A stretch of DNA of 44,219 bases from NCBI GenBank assembly GCA_013265495.1, contig MU057848.1, positions 62,001 to 106,219 on the forward strand, written 5' to 3'. The position numbers were made by a program, and so were the translations under genes. The first letter of the stretch is position 1, and every line of letters begins with the position of its first letter. This DNA comes from Vicugna vicugna. Taxonomy: Eukaryota. Below, piece by piece: positions 13,417 through 44,219 of this stretch. Below the pieces are notes generated by a model. The model made no database searches and was not told the origin of the DNA. It saw only the letters and a program-made list of their open reading frames with translations.

Positions 13417-14815
13417 TTTTTTTTTTTTTCAATGTTCAGTTTCCTTTAATGACCCCCATTCTCCCTGAAGGGCAGGTGCAGACAGCTAGGCGATGGCAAG
13501 AAATGTTCACTTGAAGATCTTGCCCTGATTGAAGGCTTTGCTTTGACCCCCTCCCAGGAAAAGTATTCTCGAACCAGCGTCTGGGTTTCCTCGCTTCCAG
13601 GATCCAGTTTCCGCCATGTGTACGACTCGTAGTCCACCTGCCAATCTGGACTCAGCGGAAAAGCAAGCTCCTGGCCTCGGAAGACCCAGACCCCAGAAAT
13701 GGAGCTGCTATTGTTGGTTCCAAAGAGAATGACACTGGAAAAAGGCATTCTTCCTCAGCTTGTCCAATCGCTGGAACATTCCAGTGATGAGGTTGCAGCT
13801 CATGAAGGTCTGAGTGAGCTCTTCAGGGAAGCGGTACTCGGAGTACCACAGGGACCAGCCATCCTTATCGAAGTGCTCCCAAAAGTACGGCAGCACCACA
13901 GAGAGCGTGTCCTCGTTGGAGTACTTGCGCTTAAATTCATCCAANNNNNNNNNNNNNNNNNNNNNNNNNNNNNNNGCCTTTGGCTGCCAGTGCCTGCTCA
14001 CATTCATCCATCTCCTCCTCAGGAGCGGGGGCAGCTGCCTTTTTCTCTTCTTTCCGCTCGGCCTGGGGCTTCTGCTTCTCTTCTCAAGAACCCTTCTCTT
14101 TCCATGGGGTGTCCTTTTTAGGCTGGCTCTCTGCAAACTTTTTAGCATCAGATTGAGCCATCTTCTCACAGAGTTTCACCTCCCCCAAGACAGCCCGGAA
14201 CTGGGGCTGGTTAATGCAGGTTAAAAACCAGCGGTTGGTGTTGGGGAAGGCCTGGCGGAAAGAAGGCTCCAGGACCTGCCAGGAGGCAAGAGTGGAAACA
14301 AAGTCAGTGGACGAAAAGATCCGGATGAGCTTCCGGCCAGAAAAGAGAGACTCTTGTTTCTTTCTACACCAGCATCCTCTCAGCCCCCAGAAAGCACCTC
14401 CGAGACACCATCTTTCCCCGGAGGGCTACTGCCCATTTACCTTCCAAATCTTTCTTGCAGTCCAGTCCAATGTAACGAATGCCTGGTCCCATCCTCCATT
14501 TACTATGAATCAGACTGGTAGGAGTACTTATATGGTGCCTAACTCCTTTTACAAAGCTACTTCACACCTACAATTTCATATGTCAATAAAACTTTAAAAG
14601 GTTGGGACCAGCGGAGGGCTATCAACTACTCATTTTGCCAAATAATGAAAATGATCTACACGAACTACATGGTATGTGATATACAGATGTCACCAAATTT
14701 CAGAAAGTAAATAATATTCAACAGCAAAAGGGGAGAGCCGTGGAGAAACAGCAGCCGGAAAGCGAGGACGGCATAGAAGGCATACGCACGACAGTTCGGT
14801 ATCCCGCGGCGGCCC
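13417..14815 (-). pseudogene. EEF1G: Semi-processed retropseudogene of translation elongation factor 1 gamma (C-terminal part, 3' UTR, poly-A, and ~540 bp of intron-like 5' sequence)
   Basis: The - strand translates to EEF1G peptides ([167 protein letters not shown]) over 14275-13507. ATTAAA at 13445-13450, poly-A (T run 13415-13429), and 18-bp TSD AGCTGGGATGTTATTCTT at 13399-13416 and 14816-14833. Lesions: premature TGA at 14084-14086, frameshift near 13740, deletion near 13540. Confidence 0.97.
13945..13975. other. Assembly gap (31 N)
   Basis: Run of N inside the EEF1G retrocopy, where KDPFAHLPKSTFV would be encoded. Confidence 1.
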
Positions 14816-24440: not shown

Positions 24441-24626
24441 GGCTTTATTGCCTTCCTCTCCAGGTTTCCCCAAATTAGGGACAGCTGGGAGTGTAGTTTT
24501 GGGGGAGAACTGGTCAAAATGTTTTCTTACACAATTCAATTTTAGTTTGAATGACCCCATGATGACTCCTAGCTGACTTTCCCCCAGAAATAAGGTTTCC
24601 TTAGCTAGGACCATTTGAAAATCCAG

Positions 24627-27356
24627 TATGTATTTATGATAAAAACTCTCAACAAAGTGGGTATAGAGGGAACATCTCTCAACACAATAAAAGCTGTATA
24701 TGACAAACCTACAGCCAGCATAGTAGTACTCAACAGTGAAAAACTCAAAAGCTTCCCACTAAAATCTGGGACAAGACAAGGCTGCCCACTATCACCACTC
24801 CTATTCAACATAGTCTTGTAAGTCCTAGCCACAGCAATCAGGCAAGAGAGAGAAATAAAAGGGATCCAAATTGGAAAAGAGGTAAAAGTGTCACTATATT
24901 CAGATGACATGATACTATATATAGAAAACCCTAAAAGGTCCACACAAAAACTACTAGAGCTGATTGAAGAATTCAGCAAGGTAGCAGGTTACAAGATTAA
25001 CACTCAAAAATCAGTTGCATTTCTTTACACTAATGATGAATCAACAGGAAAAGAAAGTAAAGAAACAATCCCCTTTAAAATAGCACCCGAAGTAATAAAA
25101 TACCTAGGAATAAATCTAACCAAGGAGGTGAAAGAATTATACACAGAAAACTATAAACCATTGATGAAGGAAATTAAAGAAGACTTTAAAAAAATGTAAA
25201 GATATCCTATACTCCTAGATTGGAAGAATCAGTATTGTTAAAATGGTCACACTGCCGAAGGCAATCTACAGATTTAATGCAATCCCTATCAAATTACCCA
25301 GGACATATTTCACAGAACTAGAACAAATCATAATAAAATTTATTTGGAACCATAAAAGACCTAGAATTGCCAAAGCATTACTGAAGAAAAAGAAAGAGGC
25401 TGGAGGAATAACTCTCCCAGACTTCAGACAATACTACAGAGCTAGAGTCATCAAGACAGCATGGTATTGGTACAAAAAGAGACATTTGGACCAATGGAAT
25501 AGAATAGAGAGTCCAGAAATGAACCCACAAACTTTTGGTCAACCAATCTTCGACAAAGGAGGCAAGAGCATTCAACGGAATAAAGACAGTCTCTTCAGCA
25601 AATGGTGTTGGGAAAACTGGACAGCAGCTTTTAAAGCAATGAAGCTAGAACACTCCCTTACACCATACACAAAAATAAACTCAAAATGGATCAAAGACTT
25701 AAACATAAGACAAGATACAATAAACTTCCTAGAAGAAAATATAGGCAAAACATTACCTGACATACATCTCAAAAATGTTCTCTTAGGACAGTCTACCCAA
25801 GCAATAGAAATAAAAGCAAGAATAAACAAATGGGACCTAATTAAACTTACAAGTTTCTGCACTGCAAAGGAAACCATAAGTAAAACAAAACAACCACCTA
25901 CGGAATGGTAGAAAATTTTTGCCAACGATGAAACTGACAAACGCCTGATCTCCAGAATATACAAGCAGCTCATACGACCATGTAAGAAAAAAACAAACAA
26001 CTCAATCTGAAAATGGGCAGAAGACCTAAACAAACAATTCTCCAAGGAAGAAATACAAATGATCAATAGGCACATGAAAACATGCTCAGTAGAACTAATT
26101 ATCAGAGAAATGCAAATCAAAACTACAATGAGTTATCACCTCACACCAGTCAGAATGGCCATCATTCAAAAGTCCACAAATGACAAATGCTGGAGAGACT
26201 GTGGAGAAAAGGGAACCCTCCTTCACTGCTGGTGGGAATGCAGTTTGGTGCAGCCACTGTGGAAAACAGTATGGAGATTCCTCAAAAAACTACGAGTAGA
26301 CTTACCATATGACCCAGGAATCCCGTTCCTGGGCTTATATCCTGAAGAATCCCTGCTTCAGAATGACACCTGCCCCCCAATGATCATAGCAGCACTATTT
26401 ACAATAGCCAAGACACGGAGACAGCCCAAATGTCCATCAACAGATGACTGGATAAAGAAGAAGTGATACGTTTATACAGTGGAATACTACTCAGCCATAA
26501 AAACTGACAACATAACGCCATTTGCAGCAACATGGATGTTACTGGAGAATGTCAATTCTAAGTGAAGTAATCCAGAAAGAGAAAGAAAGATACCATATGA
26601 AATCACTCATATGCGGCTATAAAAAAAATTACAAAACAGAAACAGACCCATAGACAGAATACAAACTTGTGGCTGCCAGGGGGACGGAGGGTGGGAAGGG
26701 ACTGGGATTTCAAAATGTAGAACAGAAACAAGATTGTACTGTGTAGCACAGGGAAATATATACAGGATCTTGTGGTGGCTCACAGCAGAAGAGAATGTGA
26801 CAATGAATGTATGTATGTTCATGTATAATTGAAAAATTGTGCTATACACTGGAATTTGACACAACATTGTACAATGACTAAAACTCAATTAAAAAAAGTA
26901 AAAAAAAAAAAAAGACAACATAATGCCATTTGCAGCAACATGGATGTCCCTGGAGAATGTCATTCTAAGTGAAGTAAGCCAGAAAGAGAAAGAAAAATAC
27001 CATATGAGATCGCTCATACGTGATATCTAAAAAAAAACAAAACATAAATACAAAACAGAAACAGACTCAGAGACATACAATGCAAACTTGAGGTTGCCAA
27101 AAGGGAGGAGGGTGGGAAGGGGCCGACTGGGATTTCAAAATTTGTAGATACTGACAGGCATATGCAGAATAGATAAACAAGATTATACTGTATAGCACAG
27201 GGAAATATACACAAGATCTTGTGGTAGCTCACAGAAAACAAAAGGTGACAATGAATATATGTTCATGTATAACTGGAAAATTATGCTTTACACTGGAAAT
27301 TGACACAACATTGTAAAATGACTATAACTCAATAAAAAAAGTTAAAAAAAAAAAAA
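24627..27356 (+). mobile_element. 5'-truncated LINE-1 (ORF2 RT and C-terminal region, disrupted) with two tandem 3' ends
   Basis: ORF fragments carry L1 ORF2 motifs: [31 protein letters not shown] (YADD-like), [47 protein letters not shown]. Stops and frameshifts are present. Poly-A tails at ~26890-26913 and ~27344-27356. TSD GAAAATCCAG at 24617-24626 and 27357-27366. Confidence 0.97.
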
Positions 27357-38197: not shown

Positions 38198-39415
38198 CTC
38201 TAGTGTGTCTGTCTATCTGTCGGCCTGCCTATCTATCTATCTATTCGAGGAAGGGAGAGGCTAATCTATGTCTGTGAGTGTCTGTCTGTCTATCTAATGA
38301 AGGAAGAGGAGGCTAATATGTCTTTCTATCTCTCTATCTCTCTGCCTATCTGTCTGTCTGTCTGTCTGTCTAATGGAGGAGGCAGAGGAGACTAGTGTGT
38401 GTGTGTCTATGTATCTAATATTGGCGGAAGCTAGTGTGTCTATCTGTCTAAATGAATAGAAGGAGGGCAGTGTGTGTGTGTGTGTATGCATGTGTGTGTC
38501 TGCCTGTCTGTCCATCTCACTACTTTCTATCTAATGGAGGAGGAGGAGGCTAGGGTGACTCTCTGTCTCTCTGTCTCTATGTGCATGTATCTGTCTGTCT
38601 CTCTGTCTCTATGTGCATGTAATGAAGTAGGAGGAGGCTAGTGTGTCCATCTGTCTGTCTATGTGTTTCTCTATCTAACGGAGGAGCAGGGTAGTGTGTC
38701 TATCTATTTAACCTATTGTAGTAGTAGGAGGAGTGTAGTCTCTCTGTCGCTATCTATCTATCAAGTGGAGGCATACAAGCAAGCTAGTGTGTCTTTTCAT
38801 GTGTCTGTCTGTCTGTTGGAGGAGTAGGTTAGTGTGTCTATCTACCTACCTACCTAATTGAGGAGGACACGGCTAGTGTGTGTGTGTGTGCATGTGCGTC
38901 TGTCTATGTATGTATCTGTATCTAATGGAGGAGGAAGAGGCTAGTATGTCTGTCTATCTATCAGATATCTATGCATCTATATATCTAATCGAGAAGGAGG
39001 AGGTTAGAGTGTCTGTCCATCTCATTACCTATCTGAGGAGGAGAAGACCTGTGTGTGTTTGTCTGTCTTTATGTATATCTAATGGAGAAGGAGGAGGAGG
39101 CCTGTGTGACTGGCTATCTGTCTGTCTCTCTAACAGGAGAAGGAAGAGGCTAGATTGTGTGTCTGTCTCTCTATCTGTCTAATGGAGGAGGAGGAAGTCT
39201 ATTAAGTCAATCTGTCTAATGGAGGAGATTAGTGTGTCTATCTACTTACCTACCTAACTGAGGAGTAGGAGCAGGCCAGTGTGTGTCTGTCTGTCTGTCT
39301 CTCTATCTGTCTACCTATCTAATGGAAGAGGGGGTTAGAACATATGTCTGTTTCTAAACAGAGGAAGAGGCTAATGTGTCTGTCTGTCAATTTACTTGTT
39401 TCTCTGTCTAATGAA
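38198..39415. repeat. Complex minisatellite of ~40-60-bp units: TCTAATGGAGGAGGAGGAGGCTAGTGTGT plus (TCTG/TCTA)n
   Basis: Roughly 20 degenerate repeats of 'tctaatggaggaggaggaggctagtgtgtc' separated by variable tctg/tcta/tg runs. Confidence 0.92.
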
Positions 39416-39419
39416 CGAA

Positions 39420-40013
39420 GTTTCCCAGGACTCGAATGACCTGGACGGATGCCAACTGCCACCCTAAGGCAGCAGAGTGCACGCTTGAGCAGGCTGAGGG
39501 GTCTCAAGAGGAAATCCACAGGCTTGCCTGGGTAGCCCCGGCCCCCTACTGCCTACCTCTCTGCAGCCATCATTGCATCCTCCACCGAACCCGCCCCCTA
39601 ACCACACCTCGCTGGCCTCCAGGGAGCCAGCCTAAAACACAGATATGCACTTCAGGACCCTGGGGTAGCAGAGGCCAACCTCAGACCCGGCCAAAGAGGT
39701 GATGGAGGCAAATGCAGGGGCTGGGTTGCACAGCCCCACCTCTTCACTGCAGCTACTGACCTTATCGACCCCGCCACCAGGGGGCCGTCGGCCCTGCAAA
39801 CACACATACTATCAACCTAGGGCAGGCCAGACCGCCCTCAGGCCAGGCTTTGGGGACAAGGGAGTAAACTGATCTGCTCACCCAAGACAGTTTCCTATCC
39901 AAGACGGACCTGTCAACTCACCTGACCACGACACCATCCCAAGATCTGGCTAACAAGGAAACTTAAATCCCCCAAACCTGAGATAGCACAGGCCGTACCC
40001 AGGCCAGCCCACA
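39420..40013 (+). repeat. Diverged GC-rich satellite monomers leading in register into the macrosatellite
   Basis: Same monomer motifs as 37509-38197; 39590-40055 is collinear with 37520-37980 at an offset of ~2073 bp. Confidence 0.85.
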
Positions 40014-40781
40014 CGGGAGATGGGAGCAAAGCCATAGGCTGGCCCAGGGCAGCGCCCTCTTCTCCCGCCACCCCCGCCGACGCCGCCTCAGCTGCCGCCG
40101 CTGCGGTCTCCCTGCTGCTCCCTGACCGAACCGCGCAGGCCTCCAGGAAGGAGGCTGACCTCAACACGTGAGTCCTGCAAACCTGGGGCACCGGACGCTG
40201 CCCCCAAGCCAGGCCGCTGGCGAGATGAGAGTCAATGCGACGGCTTGCACAGGGCAGCCTCACTCCCGACACCCCACCGCCGCCCTGGGCCCTGACCCAA
40301 ACATGCCAGCCTCCTGGGAGCCGCCTGACCTAAAGACGTGGGTCCAGTCAAACTGCGGCGGCAGAGGCCACCCCCAGGTCACGCGGTGGGGGAGATGGGA
40401 ACAAACGCATGGCTCCCAAGGGGCAGCCCCCTCCTCCCGCATGCAGCGCGGGAAGGCCACGCAAGGCCTGAGGGCCAGTCTCGGCCGGTCCGGGGCCGTC
40501 CATCGCCCTCCCATCTCCCGGGGCTACCCCCGCTTTGCCAAAGCCGCCTATGAGCGGCGGCCAGGAAAGCCGCGGGGTTCAGCCAATACTAATGGGGGGG
40601 TAGGCACCCCAACCAGGGCGGGGGGCCCCGGGACCCGCCTCAGGGTCCCAACCTGGACGCGCGGCCTGGACCCCACCGACGCACCCCTCCCCTCCCCCCC
40701 CCCGGGCGCCTCCCCAACTGCACAGCCCAGGCCTCACCCGCCGACTCCCCGACCTGCGCGCCCCCACCAGCGCCCCCTTAC

Positions 40782-40985
40782 CTGGCTCGCGACGGCAGCA
40801 CAGGCGACAGCAAGCGGCGGGAGGCCGAGACCCCAGGCAGCCTTCCTCCTCCGGGAGCTGGTCCAGGAGCACCCAGCTCCCGCCCAGCTTCCTCACGTTC
40901 TGCGCGCGCCCCAGCGTCCCGGCGCCCCGGCGCCCGTGCGCGCGCGCGCACGCGCAGCTTTGGGCGCCCCTCCCCCGCCCGCCTG
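40782..40985 (-). promoter_or_regulatory. Putative CpG-island promoter and non-coding first exon ending in a consensus splice donor (unit 1)
   Basis: On the - strand: GC box GGGCGGGG (~40973-40980), alternating purine-pyrimidine NRF1-like tract 'gtgcgcgcgcgcgcacgcgca' (~40935-40956), ~130 nt of exon-like sequence, then CCAG|GTAAGG (GT at 40781-40780) and a G-rich intron-like start. Confidence 0.55.
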
Positions 40986-43057
40986 CCTGACAGCAGCATG
41001 GAGGCTTGGCTGGGACTTCAGCAGGAGGGATGCTGCGAGTGGGGCCGGGCGGTGGGCCGGTGGAGCTTGGGGCGGTGGGGCAGTGGGGCGAGCCCTGCCC
41101 GCGGCCAGGGCTGGCCGGGCCCCCAACCCCAACGCCCCCCCCACGCCCTCCTTCAGTGTCCTGGCCCCCAGGTAGGACCACCACGGACCCAGGGCCAGGC
41201 CACGCCCCACCAGCCCCACTACCCCTGCTCGCCGATCCCCACCCAGTCAATGCCTCCCCACCCCCTGCCACGCCCGGTCCCCCGATCCACTGCACCCCCG
41301 ACACAAAGCTGCTTCTCCTCACACCCAAGTCCCGCCCCAGGTCTGCGCCCCACTAGGTCCTACGCCACAGCCCCTGTAAACCGCGCTCACCCCTCGTGCC
41401 TCACCCCAGGTCCCCCCACCGTCCGGAGATACTCCCCTAACCCTTCACCTCGGAATGACCCCCCCACCCCTCAGCCGGGTCACTTCTGCTCCCAGCAACC
41501 CCTCCCCCTCAGCCTGTCCGCCCTCACCGCCAGATCGCCCCACACCCGGAGTGCACCCCTACCCCAGATGACCCCATCAGCCCTTTCCTCGCGGGAGCGG
41601 GGCGGTCTGGGCTCCGATCACCCCGGCGACAGCCGCTAGACAGGGATCCCCGGGGCCCACGGCAGGCACACAGCCCTGGGTCCCAGGTGCCCGGCCCCGG
41701 GCGGGCGGGAGTTGAGGCCATTCCACTTCCCTGCCCCACCCCCATGCCCACTGCCTCCTCTGAGGTGCCTCCCATGGGTCAGGGTGTTCCTGGGCGGCAC
41801 ACCGCTAGCCAGTGGGCCTTGGCTGCTTGATGCTGCTGCGGGGAGGGAGGGTGCAGCTGCAGCCCGCCCCCCGGGATGGACAGCAGGCAGCAGTGGCGGC
41901 GGCGTGGGAGGGGTTGCTGCCCTGGGAGAGCCAGTCCACTTGCTCCCATCTCCCCTGCTGCCTGGCCTGGGGGCAACCTCTGCTGCCAGATCTTCCCGGA
42001 AAGAGTTTCCCCCTGTCAGCCTGCCCCTGGGAGGCAGGCCGGCTGTGGCCAGGGGGGCGGGGGGGCGGCAGTGGCAGCAGCAGGGCTGGAGATGGCAGGA
42101 TTGGGGCTGCCCCATACTGGGTGAGGGATGTGCTCCCATTTCCCGCTGTCACTCTCTCTGTCCCTGTAGCTGCTGCCCCCGCCCCCGGCACACTGACTGC
42201 ACCACGCCCACCTCTCAGGAGCAGGCTGACCTGAGGACAAGCCTCCAGGGACCCTGGGGCAGCAGAGGCCGCCCCCAGGCCAGGCCGCGCGGGAGATGGG
42301 AGCAAAGCCATAGGCTGGCCCAGGGCAGCGCCCTCTTCTCCCGCCACCCCCGCCGACGCCGCCTCAGCTGCCGCCGCTGCGGTCTCCCTGCTGCTCCCTG
42401 ACCGAACCGCGCAGGCCTCCAGGAAGGAGGCTGACCTCAACACGTGAGTCCTGCAAACCTGGGGCACCGGACGCTGCCCCCAAGCCAGGCCGCTGGCGAG
42501 ATGGGAGTCAATGCGACGGCTTGCACAGGGCAGCCTCACTCCCGACACCCCACCGCCGCCCTGGGCCCTGACCCAAACATGCCAGCCTCCTGGGAGCCGC
42601 CTGACCTAAAGACGTGGGTCCAGTCAAACTGCGGCGGCAGAGGCCACCCCCAGGTCACGCGGTGGGGGAGATGGGAACAAACGCATGGCTCCCAAGGGGC
42701 AGCCCCCTCCTCCCGCATGCAGCGCGGGAAGGCCACGCAAGGCCTGAGGGCCAGTCTCGGCCGGTCCGGGGCCGTCCATCGCCCTCCCATCTCCCGGGGC
42801 TACCCCCGCTTTGCCAAAGCCGCCTATGAGCGGCGGCCAGGAAAGCCGCGGGGTTCAGCCAATACTAATGGGGGGGTAGGCACCCCAACCAGGGCGGGGG
42901 GCCCCGGGACCCGCCTCAGGGTCCCAACCTGGACGCGCGGCCTGGACCCCACCGACGCACCCCTCCCCTCCCCCCCCCCGGGCGCCTCCCCAACTGCACA
43001 GCCCAGGCCTCACCCGCCGACTCCCCGACCTGCGCGCCCCCACCAGCGCCCCCTTAC

Positions 43058-43261
43058 CTGGCTCGCGACGGCAGCACAGGCGACAGCAAGCGGCGGGAGG
43101 CCGAGACCCCAGGCAGCCTTCCTCCTCCGGGAGCTGGTCCAGGAGCACCCAGCTCCCGCCCAGCTTCCTCACGTTCTGCGCGCGCCCCAGCGTCCCGGCG
43201 CCCCGGCGCCCGTGCGCGCGCGCGCACGCGCAGCTTTGGGCGCCCCTCCCCCGCCCGCCTG
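43058..43261 (-). promoter_or_regulatory. Second copy of the putative promoter / first exon / splice donor (unit 2)
   Basis: Matches 40782-40985 at +2276; donor GT at 43057-43056. Confidence 0.55.
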
Positions 43262-43754
43262 CCTGACAGCAGCATGGAGGCTTGGCTGGGACTTCAGCAG
43301 GAGGGATGCTGCGAGTGGGGCCGGGCGGTGGGCCGGTGGAGCTTGGGGCGGTGGGGCAGTGGGGCGAGCCCTGCCCGCGGCCAGGGCTGGCCGGGCCCCC
43401 AACCCCAACGCCCCCCCCACGCCCTCCTTCAGTGTCCTGGCCCCCAGGTAGGACCACCACGGACCCAGGGCCAGGCCACGCCCCACCAGCCCCACTACCC
43501 CTGCTCGCCGATCCCCACCCAGTCAATGCCTCCCCACCCCCTGCCACGCCCGGTCCCCCGATCCACTGCACCCCCGACACAAAGCTGCTTCTCCTCACAC
43601 CCAAGTCCCGCCCCAGGTCTGCGCCCCACTAGGTCCTACGCCACAGCCCCTGTAAACCGCGCTCACCCCTCGTGCCTCACCCCAGGTCCCCCCACCGTCC
43701 GGAGATACTCCCCTAACCCTTCACCTCGGAATGACCCCCCCACCCCTCAGCCGG

Positions 43755-44219
43755 GTCACTTCTGCTCCCAGCAACCCCTCCCCCTCAGCCTGTCCGCCCT
43801 CACCGCCAGATCGCCCCACACCCGGAGTGCACCCCTACCCCAGATGACCCCATCAGCCCTTTCCTCGCGGGAGCGGGGCGGTCTGGGCTCCGATCACCCC
43901 GGCGACAGCCGCTAGACAGGGATCCCCGGGGCCCACGGCAGGCACACAGCCCTGGGTCCCAGGTGCCCGGCCCCGGGCGGGCGGGAGAGTCACTTCTGCT
44001 CCCAGCAACCCCTCCCCCTCAGCCTGTCCGCCCTCACCGCCAGATCGCCCCACACCCGGAGTGCACCCCTACCCCAGATGACCCCATCAGCCCTTTCCTC
44101 GCGGGAGCGGGGCGGTCTGGGCTCCGATCACCCCGGCGACAGCCGCTAGACAGGGATCCCCGGGGCCCACGGCAGGCACACAGCCCTGGGTCCCAGGTGC
44201 CCGGCCCCGGGCGGGCGGG
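43755..44219. repeat. 234-bp tandem duplication within macrosatellite unit 2
   Basis: 'gtcacttctgctcccagcaacc...ccgggcgggcggg' occurs at 43755-43988 and again from 43989 to the window end. It is single-copy in unit 1 (from 41479). Confidence 0.95.

What the first reader, a model, noticed from the sequence alone, without database searches (positions are those of the whole stretch)
40014..44219. Homogeneous 2276-bp CpG-rich macrosatellite that I cannot assign to a known family
Seen: two adjacent units are nearly identical, CpG-dense and composite. Each combines ~160-bp satellite monomers with a ~1.3-kb non-monomer core holding the promoter-like element and a C-rich (+) / G-rich (-) tract. I see no 5S rRNA, tRNA, snRNA or homeodomain sequence in it. 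Known: D4Z4, DXZ4 and RS447 are 3-5-kb CpG-rich macrosatellites with regulatory or coding content. Inference: a lineage-specific macrosatellite under concerted evolution that amplified a captured gene 5' end.
Basis: partly seen in the sequence, partly recalled or inferred. Interest (0 to 1): 0.7.

Follow-up and report, generated by a model that had tools for sequence, protein, structure and literature searches.

The report
Duplicated promoter inside camelid satellite DNA
A GC-rich piece that looks like the first exon of a predicted camelid transcript sits among old satellite repeats and appears less than twice at the end of this sequence, so it is probably an ordinary local duplication or an assembly echo rather than a proven new macrosatellite.

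Summary
The 2276-bp period is real, but the window holds only 1.75 units: 40014-41711 recurs at 42290-43987 with one mismatch. A perfect 231-bp copy then runs to the window end. A homogeneous array is not shown.

The unit is composite as described. It has about 150-160-bp monomers, one of them inverted, and a 1470-bp core. The core's minus strand matches NCBI gene models from Camelus ferus and alpaca. Both leave the window at the same splice-donor site and share a downstream stretch absent here, which supports a captured 5' end.

The monomers and the left flank resemble the published alpaca satellite VpaSat10-3126 (about 78% by eye). No listed alpaca satellite matches the whole unit. An orphan, altered SLIT3 exon points to a mosaic of duplicated gene pieces.

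Copy number and the junction were not tested on reads. My odds: low-copy tandem 0.45, false duplication 0.3, true high-copy macrosatellite 0.2. The scan had not noted this sequence before, though it has noted similar mosaics elsewhere in this genome.

The parts
40014..42289 (+). Repeat unit, 2276 bp, 71.9% GC; begins inside a monomer
42290..43987 (+). Partial second copy, 1698 bp, 1 mismatch to 40014-41711
43989..44219 (+). Perfect 231-bp copy of 43755-43985 running to the window end; possible assembly loop or variant unit
39910..40063 (+). Hybrid monomer at the left edge: 5' part 77% like monomer 37836 (61% like 42188), 3' part identical to monomer 42188
40115..40436 (+). Two about 150-bp GC-rich satellite monomers (40115-40263, 40286-40436)
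40437..41906 (.). Non-monomer core, 1470 bp, with the CpG-island peak
40782..41000 (-). Putative first exon ending at donor CAG|GTAAGG; matches NCBI models from C. ferus and alpaca; the 5' limit is not known (the C. ferus model extends to 41352)
40990..41171 (+). Possible divergent exon ending at a weaker donor (7 of 9 consensus bases); no database support
   Evidence: inference
41180..41711 (+). C-rich (+) / G-rich (-) tract
41907..42145 (-). Inverted monomer (41907-42055) and faint partial monomer (42102-42145); strand switch near 42150-42187; CpG-depleted
42188..42339 (+). Monomer that spans the unit-to-unit junction
37520..40013 (+). Older satellite block: four monomers, simple-repeat tract (about 38190-39420), further monomers; holds an old about 2.07-kb duplication; resembles VpaSat10-3126
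   Evidence: by-eye comparison; one shared 10-mer found
28019..28090 (-). Context: orphan SLIT3 exon, 21 of 24 residues identical to mammalian SLIT3; no other SLIT3 exon found in the window
33706..34600 (-). Context: two exon-like pieces that I recognise from memory as CEP162; the name was not confirmed by any search
   Evidence: name recalled

Best explanation
This is the edge of a South American camelid satellite and segmental-duplication mosaic. A CpG-island first exon of an uncharacterised camelid transcript, older than the camel-alpaca split, lies among old 150-160-bp GC-rich monomers of the VpaSat10-like group. Unequal exchange between two monomers, at their shared purine-rich box, made a head-to-tail duplication of 2276 bp that is young or recently homogenised and probably low in copy. 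The assembly stops inside it. It would act, if at all, as a spare promoter copy that can splice into whatever duplicon lies downstream; it encodes no recognisable protein. SHOWN: the period, the monomers, the hybrid edge monomer, the match to two gene models, the orphan SLIT3 exon. INFERRED: the species group, the recombination mechanism, the low copy number, the pericentromeric location, any promoter activity.
For: The repeat starts inside a monomer whose 5' part belongs to the old block and whose 3' part is identical to the junction monomer, which is what monomer-to-monomer exchange predicts. The monomers already produced an older 2.07-kb duplication: three supported pairs at 74-75%. The core matches two camelid models, which leave it at one donor-like site and share a 15-residue downstream stretch not found in the window. 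The alpaca model is a net 16 bases shorter inside the exon than the window (read), so it is another copy or allele. Mosaic context: one SLIT3 exon only, with two substitutions seen in 0 of the 117 listed relatives that hold the motif (117 of 120 listed). Pseudogene-rich satellite blocks are described in alpaca (PMC13751797, main text read). Fourteen runs from 8 studies and 4 coded organisms hold 53-63% of the unit's 224 sampled words, so the sequence exists outside this assembly; one run may be the source.
Against: No read or contig was laid on the junction, so the tandem join is unverified. One difference in 1698 bp fits two alleles (probability 0.49 at 0.1% divergence, 0.15 at 0.2%). The window has a 31-N gap and other perfect local copies at 30586-30873 and at its end, which are marks of a short-read, gap-filled assembly (inference). 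Donor-consensus matches alone are weak: 6 sites of 7 of 9 or better in the unit. No canonical promoter motif among those tried except GC boxes and a CG-repeat tract.
Confidence: 0.45

Rival explanations
1. False duplication. One copy of the promoter-in-satellite element exists here. The assembler or gap filler wrote a second allele, or walked a graph loop, at the end of the sequence.
For: 1 mismatch in 1698 bp. A second, 100% identical 231-bp copy ends exactly at the last base. N gap and other perfect short copies in the window. False duplications, some adjacent and on the same scaffold, are common in older assemblies (PMC9516828, passages read).
Against: No gap separates the copies, whereas that paper found a gap most often. 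The monomers share only short exact words (63% mean identity), too short for an assembler to jump on (inference). The junction monomer at 42188 is the best-scoring match to the family profile, not a broken join.
Confidence: 0.3
2. A true D4Z4-like macrosatellite: tens to hundreds of near-identical 2276-bp units, each with a CpG-island exon, collapsed by the assembly.
For: Unit size and GC content are in the macrosatellite range (several kb; D4Z4 71% GC; PMC5687341, passages read). Alpaca has many 1.8-8.5-kb satellites, and 6 of 20 loci lack a consensus. Arrays typically break assemblies (recalled).
Against: Only 1.75 units are seen. The best public runs hold at most 63% of sampled words, where a homogeneous high-copy array in the same species should give nearly all. 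This is weak evidence, because contigs drop variants and the species labels are coded. None of the 14 consensus sizes is 2276. None of 9 published primers tested marks the unit at up to 3 mismatches.
Confidence: 0.2
3. Part of an rDNA intergenic spacer, or the 5' end of a transposable element with tandem monomers.
For: TCTG-rich tracts and GC-rich repeated monomers occur in mammalian rDNA spacers and some L1 5' ends (recalled).
Against: No rRNA family in the window. No Sal-box core, TATA or box B pattern in the unit (patterns recalled). No transposon protein domain in the unit's ORFs. The paper places the VpaSat10 group below centromeres and names a different satellite, SAC-SAT, at NORs. I could not see the SAC-SAT sequence.
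Confidence: 0.05

Closest known systems
Alpaca satellite VpaSat10-3126 and its likely relatives VpaSat02-5021 and VpaSat03-3224 (PMC13751797)
   Same: The visible start of the VpaSat10 consensus aligns by eye with window 38120 onward: 57 of 73 columns, then similar into the simple-repeat tract. It begins inside one of the monomers, so the monomer appears to be part of that family.
   Different: About 20% diverged. The VpaSat10 primers do not mark this region. The unit size differs and GC is 54.6% against 71.9%. Only the first 400 bases of each consensus were visible, so whether any contains the core is unknown.
Pseudogene-rich satellite blocks of alpaca chromosomes 11, 17 and 36 (PMC13751797)
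   Same: Fragments of unrelated genes beside GC-rich repeats.
   Different: The fragments named there (NEK10, FMN2, ATF5, ABHD17A and others) are not the ones seen here. The chromosome of this window is unknown.
Human macrosatellites D4Z4, DXZ4, RS447 (PMC5687341)
   Same: kb-sized GC-rich unit with promoter-like content; DXZ4 has a bidirectional promoter in each unit.
   Different: They are arrays of about 10-150 units with shown copy-number variation; D4Z4 and RS447 encode DUX4 and USP17. Here 1.75 units, no Pfam domain, no CTCF-like core by a simple pattern, and 599 of 2276 bases are older monomers.
NCBI models LOC116661096 (Camelus ferus, XP_032328215.1) and XP_072810016.1 (Vicugna pacos)
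   Same: The same exon sequence and the same point of departure from the genomic sequence.
   Different: Their downstream parts are not in the window's 40 kb downstream. The alpaca model has a short deletion in the exon.

Membership tests
Macrosatellite (general) | Unit of kilobase size, head to tail | tested here: met
   2276-bp period in the assembled sequence; junction not checked on reads
Macrosatellite (general) | Array of many units | tested here: inconclusive
   1.75 units before the sequence ends; run shares 0.53-0.63; no depth data
Macrosatellite (general) | Copy-number variation between individuals | not tested
   no depth data obtained
Macrosatellite (general) | Concerted evolution (units alike within a species, unlike between species) | tested here: inconclusive
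   two partial copies 99.9% alike; one pair cannot separate homogenisation from youth or artefact
D4Z4 | DUX double-homeobox ORF in the unit | tested here: not met
   0 Pfam families in 13 of 13 ORFs of 100 aa or more
RS447 | USP17 ORF in the unit | tested here: not met
DXZ4 | CTCF-bound X-linked array | tested here: inconclusive
   no hit to a recalled CTCF core pattern; chromosome unknown
VpaSat10-3126 group | Sequence homology to the consensus | tested here: inconclusive
   flank about 78% by eye over the first 73 columns and one shared 10-mer; only 400 of 3126 bases visible
VpaSat10-3126 group | Unit of 3126 bp and primer sites present | tested here: not met
   period 2276; no primer site in the satellite region at up to 3 mismatches (the one hit lies at 1869-1888)
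VpaSat13-2326 and VpaSat04-5242 | Primer sites, size and GC content | tested here: not met
   0 matches for one VpaSat13 primer and both VpaSat04 primers; VpaSat13 is 63.4% GC; VpaSat04 has the same GC (71.8%) but its visible 400 bases do not resemble the unit by eye
Small-RNA gene array (5S, tRNA, U2) or rDNA | RNA gene in the unit | tested here: not met
Mosaic segmental duplication | Intron-containing fragments of unlinked genes side by side | tested here: inconclusive
   one altered SLIT3 exon without neighbours; the second gene's name is only recalled
Mosaic segmental duplication | Further copies elsewhere in the genome | not testable with these tools

The most novel reading that the evidence does not exclude
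An undescribed camelid macrosatellite in which old centromere-proximal monomers captured the CpG-island first exon of a camelid non-coding transcript and amplified it to many copies. Each unit would carry a possibly bidirectional promoter able to splice into neighbouring gene fragments and make copy-number-dependent chimeric RNAs. It would be a D4Z4/DXZ4-like element built from a satellite higher-order repeat.
Probability: 0.15. Interest if true: 0.55.

Novelty: new member of a known kind. Interest (0 to 1): 0.25.

Why it matters
If it is a real array, it adds one promoter-bearing unit to the still incomplete alpaca satellite catalogue. It would also show, in one locus, how monomer-mediated unequal exchange turns a gene 5' end into a large repeat unit. 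If it is low-copy or an artefact, it is an ordinary feature of camelid duplication mosaics and a warning about sequence ends in short-read assemblies.

Tried and rejected
No read-level depth or junction result was obtained.

Six rows listed as RNA or guessed RNA hold only 5-9% of the unit's words.

Two scans of metagenome contigs, one for an exon 22-mer and one for a degenerate monomer pattern, gave 0 matches.

The search of protein representatives used 40999-41172 (+), one base off the ATG frame I intended. It gave 2 weak hits to unrelated repetitive proteins, so the plus-strand ATG frame remains unsearched.

The CEP162 name could not be confirmed: one unnamed hit at 76% and no informative Atlas hit.

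Downstream parts of both gene models gave only short chance-level matches in the window.

Nine published primers gave no site in the satellite region.

Literature: 7 searches. The VicPac4/SAC-SAT paper itself was not found. The slide-file supplement of PMC13751797 and its consensus sequences beyond 400 bases could not be read, and they bear on family assignment. CAGGG repeats at primate duplicons (PMC2566985, passages) were considered as an analogy only.

Full report
OBSERVATION. Self-comparison of the window shows 40014-41711 repeated at 42290-43987 with a single difference at 40228. The period is 2276 bp, but the second copy is 1698 bp, 0.75 of a unit, and 41712-42289 occurs once. At 43988 the sequence jumps back by 234 bp: 43989-44219 is identical to 43755-43985 and ends at the last base of the window. 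So the evidence for an array is one junction at the end of a sequence. The unit is 71.9% GC. CpG observed/expected is 0.55 overall, peaks at 0.89 in the 300 bases from 40700, and falls to 0.26 at 41712-42187. The rest of the window runs at 0.07-0.50 per kb.

MONOMERS. An iterated profile finds 14 monomers of about 125-155 aligned bases between 37520 and 42712. Successive starts are mostly 155-205 bp apart. I aligned 12 of the 14, leaving out the two inside the second copy; mean pairwise identity is 63% (50-75%). A profile made only from the 7 monomers left of the unit finds the unit's monomers at 56.6-70.5 bits, against 6.2 for the best of 100 shuffles. Monomer hits cover 599 of 2276 bases. 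One monomer is inverted (41907-42055), so the core (40437-41906, 1470 bp) lies between monomers of opposite orientation. A tree pairs 37520 with 39592, 37679 with 39755 and 37836 with 39910, with support of 95-99 (rough values): an older 2.07-kb duplication. The monomer in which the new repeat begins is a hybrid. Its 5' part is 77% like 37836 and 61% like 42188; its 3' part is identical to 42188 and 68% like 37836. I infer exchange between two monomers at their shared box as the origin of the repeat's edge.

KNOWN SATELLITES. PMC13751797 catalogues 20 alpaca satellite loci, 14 with consensus units of 1.8-8.5 kb. I read its main text through the discussion and its spreadsheet supplement, where each consensus is cut at 400 bases. 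The visible start of VpaSat10-3126 aligns by eye with window 38120 onward at 57 of 73 columns and continues into the simple-repeat tract; a window 10-mer is found in that row. It starts inside a monomer, so the monomer appears to belong to that family, which FISH places below the centromere on 8-10 pairs and PCR restricts to South American camelids. The window's copy is diverged: neither VpaSat10 primer has a site in the satellite region. No listed unit is 2276 bp. Seven further primers, of VpaSat02, 03, 04, 07 and 13, found no site. The unit could still be one of the six loci without a consensus, or lie in the unseen part of a longer one.

THE CORE. A minus-strand frame of 40777-41004 found 2 proteins among 142 candidates (lengths 134-2000 aa only): XP_032328215.1, LOC116661096 of Camelus ferus, and XP_072810016.1 of Vicugna pacos. 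The camel model tiles 41352-40777 in six ungapped pieces at 79-100% identity. The alpaca model matches 41 of 41 residues at 40905-40783 and 23 of 25 at 40999-40925. Both leave the window's sequence at or within two codons of the donor-like site CAG|GTAAGG at 40782|40781 (8 of 9 consensus bases). Both later share a 15-residue stretch that is not in the window. The models are predictions without Pfam domains; I take them for a non-coding or untranslated exon (inference). The alpaca model is a net 16 bases shorter in the exon than the window, so it is a different copy or allele. A plus-strand donor at 41171|41172 (7 of 9) would make the island bidirectional, but it has no support: six sites in the unit score 7 of 9 or better, and the one search on that side was in another frame and negative.

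CONTEXT. 28019-28090 (-) is a SLIT3 exon (256 hits among 427 candidates, 120 listed). It differs from horse, whale and marmoset SLIT3 at 3 of 24 residues. Two of the changes occur in 0 of the 117 listed proteins that carry the motif, and no other SLIT3 exon is found in the window. A long intron could hide neighbours, but a decayed partial duplicate is the simpler reading. Exon-like pieces at 33706-34600 I recognise from memory as CEP162; no call confirmed the name. The paper describes pseudogene-rich satellite blocks in alpaca. Earlier scan notes report similar mosaics elsewhere in this genome (unchecked), and none covers this sequence.

IS THE TANDEM REAL? Fourteen of 24 listed runs, from 8 studies and 4 coded organisms, hold 53-63% of the unit's 224 sampled words. 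The sequence therefore exists beyond this assembly. A ceiling of 0.63 equals about 1.5% divergence if all loss were substitution. It is lower than I would expect of a homogeneous high-copy array in the same species, but contig simplification and coded species make this weak. No depth or junction result was obtained. For artefact: near-identity, a perfect terminal copy, a 31-N gap at 13945-13975 and perfect short copies at 30586-30873. Against: no gap between the copies, unlike most false duplications in PMC9516828 (passages), and a junction made of an intact monomer. I put a real low-copy tandem at 0.45, false duplication at 0.3, a high-copy macrosatellite at 0.2 and other origins at 0.05.

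COMPARISON AND VERDICT. It works, at most, like DXZ4 or D4Z4 in carrying promoter-like DNA in a kb-sized GC-rich unit (PMC5687341, passages). It is not a member of D4Z4, RS447 or the small-RNA arrays, and macrosatellite status is untested on the features that matter, which are array length and copy-number variation. The best filing is a new member of a known kind: a promoter-bearing duplication within camelid satellite and duplication mosaics. Interest 0.25; about 0.55 if a real high-copy, transcribed array is shown.

Noticed in passing
window 28019-28090 (-): Orphan SLIT3 exon with three amino-acid changes; no neighbouring SLIT3 exon found in the window.
   Followed up: partly
window 33706-33800 and 34380-34600 (-): Exon-like pieces recognised from memory as CEP162; the longer one looks frameshifted. 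A 47-bp piece of it recurs at 30731-30777 at 93.6%.
   Followed up: partly
window 30530-30873: Patchwork of perfect 34-, 48- and 100-bp copies between the SLIT3-like and CEP162-like parts: a templated-insertion breakpoint or a gap-filling artefact.
   Followed up: no
window about 13440-14280 (-): EEF1G-like retrocopy (Pfam PF00647, E 2e-29) interrupted by the window's only gap, 31 N at 13945-13975.
   Followed up: partly
window about 24620-27360 (+): L1-like 3' part by eye (label recalled) with a duplicated 3' end: 26499-26918 against 26907-27361 at 80%.
   Followed up: no
window 39422-39896: The second set of old monomers has longer branches and lower GC than its partners at 37520-37825 (0.33 and 0.28 against 0.05 and 0.07 changes per column): asymmetric decay after the old duplication.
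   Followed up: no
window about 36000-36565: LTR-like element by eye (polyadenylation signal near 36477; label recalled, not tested) about 1 kb left of the satellite block.
   Followed up: no
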